4,463 nt of DNA from a virus (lineage: Duplodnaviria; Heunggongvirae; Uroviricota; Caudoviricetes). Location: the IMG/VR virus record IMGVR_UViG_2684622772_000008; one strand, 5' to 3'. The notes under the pieces were generated by a model. That model was given only the letters and a program-made list of their open reading frames with translations. It was not told where the DNA came from and did not search any database. Position numbers and translations under genes: made by a program. Below, piece after piece: positions 3 to 4,463 of the stretch. Position 1 is the first letter of the stretch, and each line of letters starts with the position of its first letter.

Positions 3-753
3 TTCTGCTCATTATTAGCTCCTTCTGATGCCATTCTATTTCAGGAAGGAGTGTCCGTTAAACTCAGGCTACCTCAGGTTATTCGCTTCTGGGCATGGGC
101 GGATCAACAAATGATAGACGGTAATGCAGATTGTAACGCTCGCGGCGTTACAAAAAGTGCAATAGATCGCATCACTTTTATGTCTGGTTTTGCTGATGCG
201 TTAATTCAGGTTGGATGGCTGGTCGAAAATGACGGAGGGCTTTCTCTACCTAACTTTGAACGTCATAACGGAAAAAGCTCTAAAAAAAACGGGCGGTTAC
301 AAACGAGCGAGTAACAAAAATACGCGAACTGAAACGAAAAGGTAACGCTGCCAGCGTTACACAAACGGATCAAAAAGCGTTACCAGAGGAAGAGGAAGAG
401 GAAGATCTAAATACTGATCTCCCCCTCGCCAAAAACGAGCGTCTAAAAAATTCGAGCCGGAGGCTATTGAGCTGCCCGATTGGTTGCCGGAAACACTCTG
501 GCATGAGTGGGTCCGGTTCAGACAGGCATTGCGAAAACCGATTCGAACGGAGCAGGGCGCTAACGGGGCGATACGGGAACTGGAAAAATTCCGTCAGCAG
601 GGTTTTACACCTGAGCAGGTGATTCGACACAGCATCGCCAATGAATACCAGGGCCTGTTCGCGCCGAAAGGTGTTCGGCCTGAGACGTTGCTCCGACAGG
701 TTAACACCGTCTCGTTGCCGGACAGTGCGATCCCGCCAGGCTTCAGGGGGTAA
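3..753 (+). pseudogene. Phage replication/primosomal protein with DnaT-like C-terminal domain; 5' end upstream of window; frame broken twice at poly-A runs
   Basis: Three contiguous coding segments in three + frames. Segment 1 is open from nt 3 to TAA 312-314 (N-terminal domain; the GTG at 51 is probably internal). Segment 2 runs about 290-450 (charged linker, including EEEEEE from (GAGGAA)3 at 386-403). Segment 3 runs 418-753 and ends ...NTVSLPDSAIPPGFRG, matching the DnaT C-terminus as I recall it (...NTVSEPDSQIPPGFRG). Frame switches coincide with A8 at 282-289 and A6 at 445-450. TAA 751-753 lies 6 nt before the DnaC-like start, as in dnaT-dnaC operons. Confidence 0.6.
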
Positions 754-1186: not shown

Positions 1187-1414
1187 NNNNNNNNNNNNNN
1201 NNNNNNNNNNNNNNNNNNNNNNNNNNNNNNNNNNNNNNNNNNNNNNNNNNNNNNNNNNNNNNNNNNNNNNNNNNNNNNNNNNNNNNNNNNNNNNNNNNNN
1301 NNNNNNNNNNNNNNNNNNNNNNNNNNNNNNNNNNNNNNNNNNNNNNNNNNNNNNNNNNNNNNNNNNNNNNNNNNNNNNNNNNNNNNNNNNNNNNNNNNNN
1401 NNNNNNNNNNNNNN
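1187..1414. other. Assembly/scaffold gap (228 N)
   Basis: Uninterrupted run of n characters; true length and content unknown. Confidence 0.99.
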
Positions 1415-2414: not shown

Positions 2415-3101
2415 ATGACCCCAATAAACATATTTATGACAGTTGCTGATTTCAAACGGCCCAAATTGGAGCTCCCAAACGGGGCAAACAAACTACTACT
2501 GCACTCTTGCTGTGCTCCATGTTCCGGTGAGGTGATGGAGGCGCTTCAGGCCTCGGGAATCGACTACACCATCTTTTTCTACAACCCGAACATTCATCCT
2601 CAGAAAGAGTATTTAATTCGTAAGGATGAGAATATTCGCTTTGCTGAACAACACGGCGTGCCGTTTATTGATGCTGATTACGACACAGACAACTGGTTTG
2701 AACGAGCCAAAGGAATGGAATGGGAGCCCGAACGAGGGATCCGTTGCACCATGTGTTTTGACATGCGTTTTGAGCGGACAGCGCTGTACGCCGCTGAAAA
2801 TGGTTTCAGTGTGATCAGCAGTTCACTGGGCATTTCACGCTGGAAAAATATGCAGCAGGTTAACGACTGTGGGCGGCGAGCCGTCGCGCATTATCCGGGC
2901 ATGGTGTACTGGGATTATAACTGGCGCAAGCAGGGCGGCTCGTCCCGTATGATTGAAATCAGCAAGCGCGAAAAATTCTATCAGCAGGAATATTGTGGCT
3001 GTGTGTATTCTCTGCGCGATACCAATCTACACCGCAAATCTCAGGGACGCCCTCTTATCAAAATTGGTCAACTCCACTACGGTAAAGAAGAGAAGGAGTG
3101 A
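2415..3101 (+). CDS. queH: QueH-family (DUF208) epoxyqueuosine reductase-like protein (228 aa)
   Basis: The translation contains [32 protein letters not shown] and C-terminal YCGCVYS, the conserved Cys-containing blocks I recognise as the QueH/DUF208 signature. TGA 3099-3101. No clear Shine-Dalgarno before ATG 2415; in-frame ATG 2436 and TTG 2466 are alternative starts. Confidence 0.82.
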
Positions 3102-3122
3102 TTTTATGGGGCACCTTTCTGA

Positions 3123-3152
3123 TTGATTTCATATTGGCGAGGTAAGTAGAAT
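3123..3152 (+). promoter_or_regulatory. Candidate sigma70 promoter of the hok-like mRNA
   Basis: -35 TTGATT at 3123-3128, 18-nt spacer, -10 TAGAAT at 3147-3152. Predicted start near 3159-3162 puts GUGCUUGAGG at the 5' end of the transcript, resembling the 5' end of plasmid R1 hok mRNA as I recall it. Confidence 0.45.
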
Positions 3153-3204
3153 GACTGCGGGTGCTTGAGGCTATCTGCTTCAGGCATGAACACCAAAAGG
3201 CAGA

Positions 3205-3281
3205 TAGAGAAAAGCCCCAGTTAACATTACGCGTCCGGCAAGACGCTTAACATTAATCTGAGGCCAATTTCATGCTTTGCA
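3205..3281 (-). ncRNA. sok: Sok-like antisense RNA (antitoxin of the type I TA locus); ends approximate
   Basis: On the minus strand, -35 TTGCCT (plus coords 3310-3315), 17-nt spacer, -10 TAACCT (plus coords 3287-3292). This has the same position and orientation as the sok promoter in hok/sok loci, overlapping the mok-equivalent start region. The transcript would run leftwards through the 5-bp hairpin GCGUC/GACGC at 3231-3246. The 3' end is not defined by a clean U-tract. Confidence 0.4.
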
Positions 3282-3328
3282 CATGTAGGTTAGCCTCTTA
3301 CATGCCGAAAGGCAAGGAGAAGCAGGCT

Positions 3329-3484
3329 ATGAAGCAGCAAAAGGCGATGTTAATCGCCCTGATCGTCATCTGTTTAACCGTCATAGTGACGGCACTGGTA
3401 ACGAGGAAAGACCTCTGTGAGGTACGAATCCGAACCGGCCAGACGGAGGTCGCTGTCTTCGTAGACTACGAATCCAGGAAGTAA
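3329..3484 (+). CDS. hok: Hok/Gef-family type I toxin (51 aa, single transmembrane helix)
   Basis: AAGGAG 3314-3319, ATG 3329, TAA 3482-3484. Protein MKQQKAMLIALIVICLTVIVTALVTRKDLCEVRIRTGQTEVAVFVDYESRK has a hydrophobic helix and the TRK.LCE.R..G..EVA tail typical of Hok proteins. It is very close to E. coli HokD/RelF as I recall it. Leader and trailer RNA elements are also hok-like. Confidence 0.9.
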   Translation: MKQQKAMLIALIVICLTVIVTALVTRKDLCEVRIRTGQTEVAVFVDYESRK

Positions 3485-3561
3485 GAGTGACCGGGCGGGG
3501 AGCTGATCCCATCCCCGCCCACCTCTGATGTGTCAGGCATCCTCAACGCACCCGCACTTAA

Positions 3562-3604
3562 CCCGCCCATCGCTGTGATCTCTCAGCGTTTCGGCGGGTT
3601 TTTT
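3562..3604 (+). terminator. Rho-independent terminator of the hok-like transcript
   Basis: Stem CCCGCC (3562-3567) pairs with GGCGGG (3593-3598), with inner pairing CGCUG (3571-3575) and CAGCG (3584-3588), followed directly by TTTTTT at 3599-3604. Confidence 0.7.
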
Positions 3605-3624
3605 GTTGTTTATTTCCGGTGAAT

Positions 3625-3652
3625 TTGATTCGCGCACCTTCGCAGATAGAAT
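3625..3652 (+). promoter_or_regulatory. Candidate sigma70 promoter upstream of the 95-aa ORF
   Basis: -35 TTGATT at 3625-3630, 16-nt spacer, -10 TAGAAT at 3647-3652. These are the same hexamers as the hok promoter, and the sequence after the -10 is similar (TAGAATcGACT vs TAGAATGACT). Confidence 0.4.
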
Positions 3653-3733
3653 CGACTCACTTAAGTAGCGCGCAGGGAGAAGAGGGATGGACCCCGAACA
3701 GGGGAGAGCTATTTATCTGGAAGGATTCTGAAG

Positions 3734-4021
3734 ATGAAAATCGAAGAATTGCGTGAAATTTTTAGTGAAAATGGCCTCTATGCTGTGCGCGTTGAGAATG
3801 GAGCGATTGTCAGCCATTGCCGCATTAGATGTTTGCAATCTCAACAAAGGAAGAGCGGTGCTGTGTTATTTTATTTTTGTAATGGACTTCTGACGGACGG
3901 TTTTATTTTGCGTGAGGACGAATTTGTCACATCATTACGGGTTTTGAAAGAGATTGGTTTTAAGGCTGGTTTTCTGCTTTTGCTGAAGAATAAACTCATC
4001 TACAATCTTGAGCAGGATTGA
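3734..4021 (+). CDS. Hypothetical protein (95 aa), unassigned
   Basis: GGAAGGA at 3719-3725 is 8 nt before ATG 3734; TGA 4019-4021. Codon usage looks AT-rich with AGA/AGG Arg codons. No family recognised. Confidence 0.45.
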   Translation: MKIEELREIFSENGLYAVRVENGAIVSHCRIRCLQSQQRKSGAVLFYFCNGLLTDGFILREDEFVTSLRVLKEIGFKAGFLLLLKNKLIYNLEQD

Positions 4022-4059
4022 ACTCCTGCTGTGTAACACCGTGCCACCGGAGAAAGCCG

Positions 4060-4413
4060 ATGGCACATATACAACTGGTCAAACAAACCTCTTCCGGATT
4101 ACTTCTCCCGGCGACGCCGGAGAGTTGCGATTTTCTGCATCAAATCAAAATAGGTGAGTGGATACACGCAGACTTTAAGCGTGTGTGTAACTACGCATTC
4201 CACAAGCGTTTTTTCAAACTCCTGCAACTGGGTTTCGATTACTGGACTCCGGTCGGTGGGGCGATCACGCCTCGCGAACGAAAACTGGTGTCCGGTTTCG
4301 TTGATTACCTGTGTGAATCAGTAGGCCGGGAACATACGCCAGCTCTGAGCGAAGCCGCAGAGCAATTGAGGTGTACTGGCAATAGCGGACACTACCATTT
4401 GTTCTTTTTTTAA
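4060..4413 (+). CDS. Hypothetical protein (117 aa as read); may be 3'-truncated or frameshifted at a T7 run
   Basis: GGAG at 4049-4052 is 7 nt before ATG 4060 (the ORF-track TTG at 4018 is less likely). The protein is MAHIQLVKQ...GHYHLFFF with TAA 4411-4413. The stop follows T7 at 4405-4411, and the adjacent frame is open from 4410 to the window end. Confidence 0.5.
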   Translation: MAHIQLVKQTSSGLLLPATPESCDFLHQIKIGEWIHADFKRVCNYAFHKRFFKLLQLGFDYWTPVGGAITPRERKLVSGFVDYLCESVGREHTPALSEAAEQLRCTGNSGHYHLFFF

Positions 4414-4463
4414 GCAGCCATCTGATGATATTTTTCCCTGAAGGCTGCCGGGGAGATATTCCC

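What the first reader, a model, noticed from the sequence alone, without database searches (positions are those of the whole stretch)
3625..3736. Near-duplicate promoter plus a 14-codon upstream ORF coupled to the 95-aa ORF
The promoter at 3625-3652 repeats the hok promoter hexamers. Downstream, a mini-ORF (ATG 3687 to TGA 3729-3731, MDPEQGRAIYLEGF) has a strong purine-rich ribosome-binding region (GGGAG 3675-3679, AGAGGG 3681-3686). Its stop lies 2 nt before ATG 3734, and the SD of the 95-aa ORF lies inside it. A small CCCC-GAACA-GGGG hairpin (3692-3704) sits inside the mini-ORF. This looks like a leader-peptide coupling device, suggesting the 95-aa ORF is tightly controlled, as would fit a toxic or dosage-sensitive product.
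Basis: partly seen in the sequence, partly recalled or inferred. Interest (0 to 1): 0.45.

Follow-up and report, generated by a model that had tools for sequence, protein, structure and literature searches.

The report
Promoter and leader of antirepressor rem
This stretch is the promoter and 5' leader of rem, a prophage gene whose K-12 counterpart switches off the prophage repressor. The leader is more conserved than the gene and carries a tiny upstream reading frame that probably helps set how much Rem is made.

Summary
The 95-aa ORF (3734-4021) is a homolog of E. coli K-12 Rem (65% identity). K-12 Rem is the antirepressor of DicA, and forced expression causes filamentation, so "dosage-sensitive product" is supported by homology.

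Across 133 distinct related sequence contexts:
- The -10 TAGAAT, a TTGnnn -35, the 5' leader, the mini-ORF SD and AUG, and a G-C hairpin stem right after that AUG are essentially invariant.
- The promoter spacer, the hairpin loop and rem third-codon positions vary freely.

So this is a selected expression cassette. It also precedes a second small gene (55 aa) that shares at most a weak N-terminal resemblance to Rem.

The mini-ORF peptide and length are not conserved: 3, 8, 11, 12, 14-15, 18 or 22-25 codons, or an in-frame fusion to rem. Only 51 of 133 contexts have the window's stop-next-to-start geometry. In K-12, the rem RBS works with only 16 nt of leader.

My best reading, at moderate confidence, is peptide-independent upstream translation that modulates rem translation. 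Binding of a trans-acting factor to the leader is not excluded. I found no antisense RNA, LexA box, Rfam family or covariation. Interest is modest: a new member of a known kind.

The parts
3562..3604 (+). Intrinsic terminator ending the hok mRNA. Stem CCCGCC 3562-3567 / GGCGGG 3593-3598, then a T-run 3599-3604. It insulates the rem unit from upstream transcription.
   Evidence: Read from the sequence. The core CCCGC-TTCG-GCGGG-T5-6 is conserved just upstream of the rem promoter in other loci, including one without hok. The window copy has a ~23-nt insertion in its loop, so the scan did not list it.
3625..3630 (+). -35 hexamer TTGATT of the rem promoter.
   Evidence: A TTGnnn or similar hexamer is kept 16-18 nt upstream of the -10 in all promoter variants.
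3647..3652 (+). -10 hexamer TAGAAT of the rem promoter. The transcription start is predicted near A3659 (inferred, not measured).
   Evidence: Nucleotide diversity is 0.006 across 52 unique sequences, against 0.46 in the adjacent spacer.
3660..3686 (+). Near-invariant 5' half of the leader (CTTAAGTAGCGCGCAGGGAGAAGAGGG). It includes the mini-ORF Shine-Dalgarno GGGAG at 3675-3679.
   Evidence: Diversity for 3661-3686 is 0.037, against 0.12-0.28 at rem third-codon positions. The SD duplex is -8.2 kcal/mol with a 7-nt spacing. The same segment precedes a second gene class.
3687..3731 (+). Mini-ORF (uORF), 14 codons, MDPEQGRAIYLEGF, stop TGA 3729-3731.
   Evidence: The AUG is invariant in 133 of 133 contexts, but the length is 3 to 25 codons or an in-frame fusion.
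3692..3704 (+). Hairpin CCCC-GAACA-GGGG, starting 5 nt after the uORF AUG.
   Evidence: -7.6 kcal/mol. All 26 sequence variants fold (-4.8 to -11.1 kcal/mol) with at least 10 different loops of 3-7 nt. Stem diversity is 0.03-0.10 and loop diversity 0.30. Loop indels are what shift the uORF frame.
3720..3726 (+). Shine-Dalgarno of rem (GGAAGGA), inside the uORF.
   Evidence: Duplex -5.5 kcal/mol. The K-12 equivalent works with only 16 nt of upstream sequence.
3734..4021 (+). rem homolog, 95 aa (prophage antirepressor family; precomputed PF27490, phrog_340).
   Evidence: 65% identity to K-12 Rem and 59% to Rac Rem. Homologs were found and phrog_340. Same position after hokD as in K-12 Qin. Function in K-12: PMC10448788.

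Best explanation
The interval is the sigma-70 promoter and the ~75-nt 5' leader of rem, the prophage's antirepressor gene. It forms a self-contained unit (terminator, promoter, leader, gene) in the nin-like region just after hok/sok.

Transcription is inferred to start near 3659. The leader opens with a strong ribosome-binding site and an AUG (3687), followed directly by a short G-C hairpin.

Proposed mechanism: ribosomes load at this upstream AUG and translate a short frame whose peptide does not matter. In this window's variant they run across the weaker rem SD (3720-3726) and terminate 2 nt before the rem AUG. Rem synthesis is then fed or modulated by termination-reinitiation, by opening of the rem RBS, or by both. 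The hairpin tunes how easily the upstream site is used.

What is shown: the anatomy, the homology to Rem, and strong purifying selection on the -10, the 5' leader, the upstream AUG and the hairpin stem.

What is inferred: the transcription start, translation of the mini-ORF, and any coupling to rem.
For: Identity of the gene.
- The window is 100% identical to E. coli FDAARGOS_943.
- The ORF is 65% identical to K-12 Rem and sits in the same hokD-rem position.
- That prophage carries a 135-aa HTH repressor next to cro- and ydaT-like genes.
- K-12 Rem is a DicA antirepressor.

Selection on the cassette.
- Diversity is 0.006 at the -10, 0.037 in the 5' leader and 0 at the uAUG.
- It is 0.03-0.10 in the hairpin stem, against 0.46 in the spacer, 0.30 in the loop and 0.12-0.28 at rem third-codon positions.
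- The cassette is kept behind at least 7 unrelated upstream sequences and in front of two gene classes.

Upstream RBS.
- It is stronger than rem's own (-8.2 against -5.5 kcal/mol), and the uAUG is predicted 94% unpaired.

Coupling geometry.
- The stop abuts or overlaps (UGAUG) the rem AUG in 51 of 133 contexts.
- In a further 14 contexts ribosomes starting at the uAUG still cross the rem start, either through a 22-25-codon frame or through an in-frame fusion.
- The rem SD is predicted mostly paired (P unpaired about 0.1) in long-uORF variants and about 0.45-0.5 in short-uORF variants.
Against: - The uORF is only 3 codons in 57 of 133 contexts (the K-12/Qin type) and 8 codons in the Rac type. 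It then ends 34 or 18 nt before the rem AUG. Abutting-stop coupling therefore cannot explain why the leader is conserved everywhere.
- K-12 rem with only 16 nt of native upstream sequence still induces dicBp.
- No base pair in the leader/early-CDS fold shows compensatory change.
- The local RBS hairpins of the rem class fold no better than shuffles.
- The link between uORF length and SD accessibility rests on only 3-4 independent lineages.
- There is no experimental TSS or ribosome footprint. The K-12 Ribo-RET supplement has nothing at this site, possibly because rem is silent in culture.
- A coupled uORF with a strong SD arises in 4% of leader shuffles.
Confidence: 0.45

Rival explanations
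1. The invariant 5' leader is a docking site for a trans-acting regulator, such as host CsrA, Hfq with a small RNA, or a phage RNA-binding protein. That regulator would repress or activate rem translation. The upstream AUG would then be conserved as part of the binding motif, not as a start codon.
For: - The 5' half is invariant even where the uORF is cut to 3 codons, and in front of the 55-aa gene. This fits a recognition element better than a coding frame.
- The hairpin stem is kept while its loop varies.
- By inspection the leader holds several GGA motifs resembling the CsrA consensus CARGGAUG: CAGGGAG 3673-3679, GAGGGAUGG 3682-3690 and AAGGAU at the rem SD. The alternative pairing GGG-AUGGA-CCC would place a GGA in a loop (one search gives -4.1 kcal/mol).
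- The trigger for Rem production is unknown.
Against: - No rem or b1561 entry appears in the held CsrA CLIP-seq supplements, though some files are truncated and rem may not be expressed.
- One 55-aa-class variant lacks a GGA at its SD.
- GGA motifs are expected in any purine-rich RBS.
- No complementary RNA was found in 12.6 kb of the same prophage.
Confidence: 0.2
2. The upstream site is a negative element. It acts as a decoy start whose ribosomes, reading out of frame across the rem SD, or whose initiation complex stalled at the hairpin, keep Rem translation low. Basal promoter leakage would then not trigger induction. A frameshift in the G-run converts it into a strong start for an N-terminally extended Rem.
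For: - The rem SD lies inside the uORF and is weaker than the upstream SD.
- In-frame fusion variants (GGGG to GGGGG) exist in 8 distinct contexts and as database proteins of 98-102 aa.
- Rem is harmful when overproduced.
Against: - In bacteria, a stop abutting or overlapping the next start usually gives positive coupling (general knowledge).
- 3-codon variants would not occlude the rem SD.
- No slippery site or long homopolymer supports a programmed switch.
Confidence: 0.15
3. The leader has no special regulatory role beyond promoter plus RBS. Its conservation would reflect recent spread and recombination at a module boundary of mosaic lambdoid phages, and the mini-ORF would be incidental.
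For: - Sharp transitions from near-identity to unrelated sequence on both sides (at the -10 and at the hairpin) are typical of phage mosaic joints.
- The family is confined to Escherichia and Shigella.
- There is no covariation.
- The uORF geometry has p of about 0.04 by shuffling.
Against: - Within otherwise near-identical loci the adjacent 16-18-nt spacer has accumulated many substitutions, while the 27-nt 5' leader has almost none.
- The hairpin stem is kept through at least 10 different loops, including indels.
- The uAUG is kept in 133 of 133 contexts.
Confidence: 0.12
4. A long-range RNA fold locks the transcript. It would pair the 5' end of the leader (GCGCGCAG 3668-3675 and AGAGG 3681-3685) with rem codons 14-19 (CCUCU 3775-3779 and CUGUGCGC 3783-3790), much like the fold-back inhibition of hok mRNA. 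It would control translation or stability.
For: This helix appears in the MFE and centroid folds of 3659-3810 (-42.5 kcal/mol, z = -2.5). It also appears in the RNAalifold consensus and in most lineages.
Against: - There are no compensatory changes.
- Several single sequences break a pair (CA, AC, AG, UC).
- The partner differs between lineages.
- GCGCGC is self-complementary, so it pairs with any GCGC-containing segment.
- The partner region also encodes invariant residues G-L-Y and V-R-V-E.
Confidence: 0.08

Closest known systems
E. coli K-12 Qin prophage hokD-rem locus (rem, b1561)
   Same: Same gene family (65% identity). Same order: hok terminator, promoter with TAGAAT, conserved leader, rem. 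Same invariant 5' leader, upstream SD and AUG, and hairpin stem. K-12 Rem is an experimentally shown antirepressor of DicA (PMC10448788).
   Different: The K-12 upstream frame is only AUG-GUC-CCU-UAA (3 codons), ending 34 nt before the second of the tandem rem ATGs used for alignment. The promoter spacer is unrelated. Rem is 83 aa with a different C-terminus. The leader and promoter are not described in the paper, which states that the signal inducing Rem is unknown.
Phage P1/P7 immI region: icd-ant translational coupling controlled by c4 RNA (own knowledge, not checked here)
   Same: An antirepressor gene whose expression depends on translation of an upstream, overlapping open reading frame. 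It gives tight control of a product that would induce the prophage.
   Different: icd is a 73-codon functional gene. Control is by the c4 antisense RNA and Rho-dependent polarity. No antisense RNA or complementary site was found here, and the upstream peptide here is not conserved.
hok/mok/sok, present in this same window at 3159-3484
   Same: An overlapping upstream frame (mok) whose translation is needed for the downstream gene. It has a purine-rich SD almost identical to the one here (GCAAGGAGAAG 3312-3322 against GCAGGGAGAAG 3672-3682) and the same two promoter hexamers.
   Different: hok is regulated by the cis antisense Sok RNA and by 5'-3' fold-back. Neither an antisense promoter nor supported long-range pairing is seen for rem. 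Rfam matches only the hok/sok part. The product is a soluble regulator, not a membrane toxin.
LexA-controlled antirepressors of Gifsy/Fels prophages (GfoA, FsoA) and phage 186 Tum
   Same: The same logic: a short, non-cleavable repressor is inactivated by a small antirepressor encoded elsewhere in the prophage. Rem was found through GfoA/FsoA searches.
   Different: No LexA box (CTGT-N8-ACAG, up to 2 mismatches) lies in 3600-3740. In K-12, spontaneous dicBp induction and its induction by urea were independent of both RecA and Rem.
Classical leader-peptide attenuators (trpL, ermCL and the like)
   Same: A short translated frame in a 5' leader upstream of a regulated gene.
   Different: There are no conserved peptide or regulatory codons, no alternative terminator/antiterminator hairpins, and no U-tract after the hairpin.

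Membership tests
Rem antirepressor family (PF27490 / phrog_340) | Sequence homology to K-12 Rem over most of its length | tested here: met
   65% identity to K-12 Rem and 59% to Rac Rem. 77 homologs, all with precomputed PF27490. phrog_340 at E 6e-20. The held Pfam copy lacks this newer model, so it gave no hit.
Rem antirepressor family (PF27490 / phrog_340) | Genomic context: lambdoid nin-like region next to hok, in a prophage with a short DicA-type repressor | tested here: met
   The identical E. coli locus has a 135-aa HTH protein divergent from cro- and ydaT-like genes about 4.5 kb upstream, then hokD, this ORF, and DUF1367, DUF1364 and DUF1133 (Q-like) genes. The order matches K-12 Qin and Rac. 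Repressor type is taken from annotation and length only.
Rem antirepressor family (PF27490 / phrog_340) | Antirepressor activity against the cognate repressor | not testable with these tools
   Shown only for K-12 Rem against DicA (PMC10448788).
Sigma-70 promoter | -35 and -10 hexamers with a 16-18-nt spacer, conserved among relatives | tested here: met
   TTGATT-16-TAGAAT, 9 of 12 matches. The -10 is invariant and a -35 is retained across about 40 promoter variants.
Sigma-70 promoter | Mapped transcription start | not testable with these tools
   No TSS data could be retrieved; the K-12 dRNA-seq paper is not held.
Translationally coupled upstream ORF (mok-hok or icd-ant type) | Upstream ORF with its own functional RBS | tested here: met
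   In silico only: SD -8.2 kcal/mol at a 7-nt spacing, AUG predicted accessible, SD and AUG invariant in 133 contexts.
Translationally coupled upstream ORF (mok-hok or icd-ant type) | Upstream stop overlapping or adjacent to the downstream start | tested here: inconclusive
   Met in the window (2-nt gap) and in 51 of 133 contexts. Not met in the 3-codon (57 contexts) and 8-codon variants.
Translationally coupled upstream ORF (mok-hok or icd-ant type) | Downstream RBS closed unless the upstream ORF is translated | tested here: inconclusive
   The rem SD is predicted about 90% paired in the window type. However, local hairpins are no better than shuffles, there is no covariation, and the K-12 RBS works in isolation.
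Leader-peptide attenuation | Conserved leader peptide or regulatory codons, and alternative terminator/antiterminator structures | tested here: not met
   Peptides vary (MVP, MDPSGERY, MDPEQGRAIYLEGF, MDPEGEELFIWKDSEDENRRIA and others). No terminator lies between 3687 and 3734.
Antisense-RNA-controlled gene (hok/sok, P22 sar/ant, P1 c4/ant) | Antisense promoter on the opposite strand, or a complementary RNA elsewhere in the element | tested here: not met
   No minus-strand promoter-like site in 3000-4463. No inverted repeat or significant duplex partner for the leader in 12.6 kb of the prophage; the best non-self duplex has z of about -3.5 among 3146 windows. The rest of the prophage was not scanned.
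LexA-regulated antirepressor | LexA box overlapping the promoter | tested here: not met
   No CTGT-N8-ACAG with up to 2 mismatches between 3589 and 3782.
CsrA-regulated leader | At least two GGA motifs, one in a hairpin loop and one overlapping the SD, with CsrA binding in vivo | tested here: inconclusive
   The motifs are present by inspection. There is no rem entry in the held CLIP-seq supplements.
Any Rfam RNA family | Covariance-model match | tested here: not met
   Only sok (3159-3334) matched at E up to 1.

The most novel reading that the evidence does not exclude
The invariant rem leader (promoter-proximal G-rich segment, AUG, hairpin) is an undescribed cis-regulatory RNA. A host factor such as CsrA or a small RNA would use it to gate translation of the antirepressor. 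Induction of DicA-type lambdoid prophages would then be tied to host physiology, not to the SOS response.
Probability: 0.15. Interest if true: 0.7.

Novelty: new member of a known kind. Interest (0 to 1): 0.4.

Why it matters
Rem-type antirepressors are the likely induction trigger for the many E. coli and Shigella prophages whose short DicA-like repressors cannot be cleaved by RecA. They also control the toxic dicBF operon of the cryptic prophage Qin. The one experimental paper on Rem states that the signal that turns Rem on is unknown.

This analysis shows that rem carries a self-contained cassette of promoter, 5' leader, upstream start and hairpin. The cassette is more conserved than the protein itself and also drives a second small gene. 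That gives a concrete, mutable target (promoter spacer, upstream AUG, hairpin) for finding the signal.

The natural variants (3-codon, abutting-stop and in-frame fusion forms) amount to a ready-made allelic series. The K-12 allele, with its truncated upstream frame, may not represent the intact phage state.

Tried and rejected
- Rfam scan at E up to 1: only sok matched.
- Cis antisense RNA: no minus-strand promoter-like site.
- Trans antisense partner: repeat search and a sliding duplex scan of 12.6 kb of the identical prophage. The only above-background hit lies inside the cargo gene queH and is at chance level.
- LexA box: none near the promoter.
- Shared operator between the rem promoter or leader and the immunity-region intergenic sequences of this prophage and of Qin: no convincing similarity by eye.
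- Long-range 5' leader/CDS helix: predicted, but with 0 compensatory pairs and lineage-dependent partners.
- Local hairpins sequestering the AUG or SD: not better than shuffles for the rem class.
- Programmed -1 frameshifting into the rem frame: that frame is open from 3665, but there is no slippery heptamer before the hairpin.
- boxB/nut-like reading of the CCCC-GAACA-GGGG hairpin: the loops differ widely among relatives and there is no boxA. Rejected by inspection.
- Q-type promoter-proximal pause element: no good -10-like hexamer in the first 25 nt. By inspection only.
- G-quadruplex: only three G3 tracts, and a competing C-tract.
- CsrA CLIP-seq supplements: no rem entry.
- K-12 Ribo-RET supplement: no entry at the site. 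A second Ribo-RET paper has no held supplements, and the K-12 dRNA-seq paper is not held.
- Full-text searches for the peptide or the leader sequence: no papers.
- Searches for work on rem regulation: only PMC10448788.
- More distant homologs that might give covariation: a Klebsiella phage has a Rem C-terminal-like ORF with an unrelated leader. The species-representative genome scan found only Escherichia and Shigella, plus one contig in a Veillonella-labelled MAG that carries the same leader/early-rem sequence as K-12.

Full report
**What the window is.**
The 4.46-kb window is the early-right (nin-like) region of a lambdoid prophage. Positions 3480-4100 are 100% identical to the chromosome of E. 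coli FDAARGOS_943. That locus has the following gene order:
- a 135-aa HTH repressor, divergent from cro- and ydaT-like genes;
- replication genes (ydaV);
- a DUF977 gene and queH;
- hokD;
- a "hypothetical protein", which is the 95-aa ORF;
- DUF1367, DUF1364 and DUF1133 (Q-like) genes.

In the window, Rfam finds the hok/sok RNA at 3159-3334. Pfam confirms QueH, DUF977 and DUF1367.

**Checking the observation.**
- Promoter: TTGATT-16-TAGAAT at 3625-3652.
- Mini-ORF: 3687-3731, MDPEQGRAIYLEGF*.
- Mini-ORF SD: GGGAG at 3675-3679, 7 nt before the AUG, with a -8.2 kcal/mol duplex to the anti-SD. The rem SD gives -5.5.
- Geometry: a 2-nt gap to ATG 3734, with the rem SD GGAAGGA (3720-3726) inside the mini-ORF.
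- Hairpin: CCCC-GAACA-GGGG at 3692-3704, -7.6 kcal/mol.

The hok promoter (3123-3152) does have the same two hexamers. However, no repeat spans the two promoters, so this is not a duplication. In relatives the rem -35 differs.

Taken alone the pattern is only mildly unusual. Two promoter-like sites were found against 1.7 expected. A coupled upstream ORF with a strong SD appears in 4% of leader shuffles.

**What the 95-aa ORF is.**
It is a homolog of Rem, 65% identical to K-12 Qin Rem and 59% to Rac Rem. The search found 77 homologs, all carrying PF27490, and the protein matches phrog_340. It occupies the same position next to hokD as in K-12.

Ragunathan et al. 2023 (PMC10448788) showed that K-12 Rem relieves DicA repression. 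It raises dicBp 165-fold and causes DicB/DicF-dependent filamentation. They also state that the condition inducing Rem is not known.

**Comparative anatomy.**
I collected related loci through the protein and through the leader core. This gave 133 distinct sequence contexts.

Nucleotide diversity across 52 unique sequences:

| Region | Diversity |
|---|---|
| -10 hexamer | 0.006 |
| 5' leader 3661-3686 | 0.037 |
| Upstream AUG | 0 |
| Hairpin stem | 0.03-0.10 |
| Promoter spacer | 0.46 |
| Hairpin loop | 0.30 |
| rem third-codon positions | 0.12-0.28 |

At least seven unrelated sequences occupy the spacer and upstream region. Each keeps a TTGnnn-like -35 at 16-18 nt.

All 26 hairpin variants fold (-4.8 to -11.1 kcal/mol). 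They carry at least ten different loops of 3-7 nt.

The cassette follows the hok terminator, but it also occurs behind an HTH gene without hok.

It also precedes a second small gene of 55 aa (MNDKELIAALSVPGNYEVIVLENGEFIV..., phrog_34610):
- The -10, the 5' leader and the hairpin stem are the same.
- The 3' leader is diverged.
- The AUG-to-AUG distance is 45-46 nt.
- BLASTP finds no similarity to Rem. A profile comparison aligns only the first 26 residues, at 38% identity and 14% probability.

The promoter, 5' leader, AUG and hairpin are thus a selected unit and more conserved than the proteins it drives.

**The mini-ORF itself is not conserved.**

| Upstream frame | Distinct contexts |
|---|---|
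| 3 codons (MVP or MAP; K-12/Qin type) | 57 |
| 14-15 codons, stop 2 nt before or overlapping (UGAUG) the rem AUG (the window's form) | 51 |
| 12 codons | 1 |
| 22-25 codons, running into rem out of frame | 6 |
| In-frame fusion to rem, via one extra G in the G-run | 8 |
| 8 codons (Rac type) | 3 |
| 8-18 codons, in front of the 55-aa gene | 7 |

Substitutions among the 14-15-codon forms are mostly non-synonymous. The frame changes come from indels in the hairpin loop.

This rules out a functional leader peptide. It also rules out a universal stop-abuts-start mechanism. What remains invariant is a ribosome-loading site followed by a hairpin.

**Structure.**
Folding 3659-3810 gives -42.5 kcal/mol (z = -2.5). 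The fold has a long-range helix between the leader's 5' end and rem codons 14-19, and the rem SD is about 90% paired.

Variants with long upstream frames are predicted to have a closed rem SD (P unpaired about 0.1). Short-frame variants have a more open one, about 0.45-0.5. That fits opening of the RBS by upstream translation.

The support is weak, for four reasons:
- Only 3-4 independent lineages are involved.
- RNAalifold finds 0 compensatory pairs among 34.
- The long-range partner differs between lineages.
- Local hairpins of the rem class fold no better than shuffles.

**Experimental constraint.**
In the K-12 study the "native RBS" construct starts only 16 nt upstream of the rem ATG (primer O-PR163). 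It still induces dicBp strongly. The rem SD is therefore functional on its own, at least in the K-12 allele and outside the native leader.

**Other mechanisms tested.**
- No antisense promoter.
- No complementary partner in 12.6 kb of the prophage.
- No LexA box.
- No Rfam family.
- No rem entry in the CsrA CLIP-seq or Ribo-RET supplements.
- No literature on the leader.
- GGA motifs resembling CsrA sites are visible at 3673-3679, 3682-3690 and at the rem SD. This is inspection only.

**Conclusion.**
The finding is real. It marks the expression cassette of the prophage antirepressor gene rem.

My best explanation, at confidence about 0.45, has three parts:
- a sigma-70 promoter starting near 3659;
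- a strong upstream start whose short, peptide-irrelevant translation is tuned by the adjacent hairpin;
- modulation of Rem synthesis by that translation, which in this allele works through termination-reinitiation or RBS opening, because the frame ends 2 nt before the rem AUG.

The main rival (about 0.2) is that the invariant 5' leader is a binding site for a trans-acting regulator. Smaller shares go to a negative decoy role, to a passive recombination boundary, and to a fold-back structure.

Relative to what is known, the closest comparisons are the following:
- The gene belongs to a characterised family.
- The cassette is an undescribed example of upstream-ORF and leader control.
- The closest functional parallel is P1 icd-ant.
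- The closest structural parallel is the neighbouring mok-hok.
- The cassette lacks the antisense RNAs of both parallels.
- It lacks the LexA control seen in the Gifsy antirepressors.

Noticed in passing
L119, L127, L142, L149, L180, L193, L200 (for example L180:1792-1956, minus strand): The same promoter -10, 5' leader, upstream AUG and hairpin also drive a different 55-aa ORF (MNDKELIAALSVPGNYEVIVLENGEFIVMPLPPDVILITKESHADSVSHFSIKKD, phrog_34610). It sits in the same post-hok position. It shares at most a weak N-terminal resemblance to Rem, and its function is unknown.
   Followed up: partly
Related loci, promoter spacer equivalent to window 3631-3646 (for example L098, L103, L099, L100; list): In the commonest promoter family the spacer is a palindrome (TTCCGG-ACGGCG-CCGGAA). 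It varies at many positions among otherwise near-identical loci, almost only by C/T and G/A transitions, while the flanking -10 and leader are invariant. This could be a decaying or diversifying operator, or a deamination hotspot.
   Followed up: no
Related loci with GGGGG in place of GGGG at the position of window 3701-3704 (for example L006, L041, L059, L060; proteins P0034, P0049): One extra G in the hairpin's 3' arm puts the upstream AUG in frame with rem. The predicted result is an N-terminally extended Rem (98-102 aa) translated from the strong upstream RBS. This form is found in 8 distinct contexts.
   Followed up: partly
window 129-152 and 338-361: Palindromic iteron-like repeats ((T)GTAACGCT-nnnn-GCGTTACA) lie inside the replication-initiator-like ORF. 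A third copy lies just upstream of the window (L003 2366-2389). This is probably the prophage replication origin.
   Followed up: no
window 1187-1414: A run of N masks the middle of the ydaV/dnaC-like gene. The window is about 90 nt shorter there than the identical E. coli locus L003, so coordinates upstream of the run are offset relative to that genome.
   Followed up: no
window 2415-3101: An epoxyqueuosine reductase gene (QueH, Pfam E 1.9e-65) is carried as cargo between a zinc-ribbon ORF and hok. Other rem-bearing prophages have paa or other genes at this place.
   Followed up: no
window 3562-3604: Relative to other loci, which have a simple CCCGC-TTCG-GCGGG hairpin, the hok terminator has a ~23-nt insertion in its loop (CCATCGCTGTGATCTCTCAGCGT).
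   Followed up: no
window 3973-4021: This Rem is a 95-aa form ending ...GFLLLLKNKLIYNLEQD, instead of the common 86-aa ...GFSAFEDE. A related tail is seen in the 92-aa proteins P0044 and P0045. The C-terminus may have been remodelled by a frameshift or recombination.
   Followed up: no
window 3312-3322 and 3672-3682: The SD region of hok (GCAAGGAGAAG) and that of the rem mini-ORF (GCAGGGAGAAG) match at 10 of 11 positions. Together with the identical promoter hexamers, this gives the two neighbouring units a similar look without any extended homology.
   Followed up: partly
L217 (Klebsiella phage ST405-OXA48phi1.2) 830-1160: An unannotated 60-aa ORF resembling the C-terminal half of Rem is preceded by three copies of an AAATAGGGGGTTG(C/A) repeat. 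An AUG-UGA start-stop lies 19 nt before its ATG. The leader is unrelated to the E. coli cassette.
   Followed up: no
L011 (contig JAGZPX010000007.1): A contig in a genome bin labelled Veillonella parvula carries a K-12-type rem locus whose leader/early-rem segment is identical to K-12's. This is most likely a binning contaminant from E. coli.
   Followed up: no
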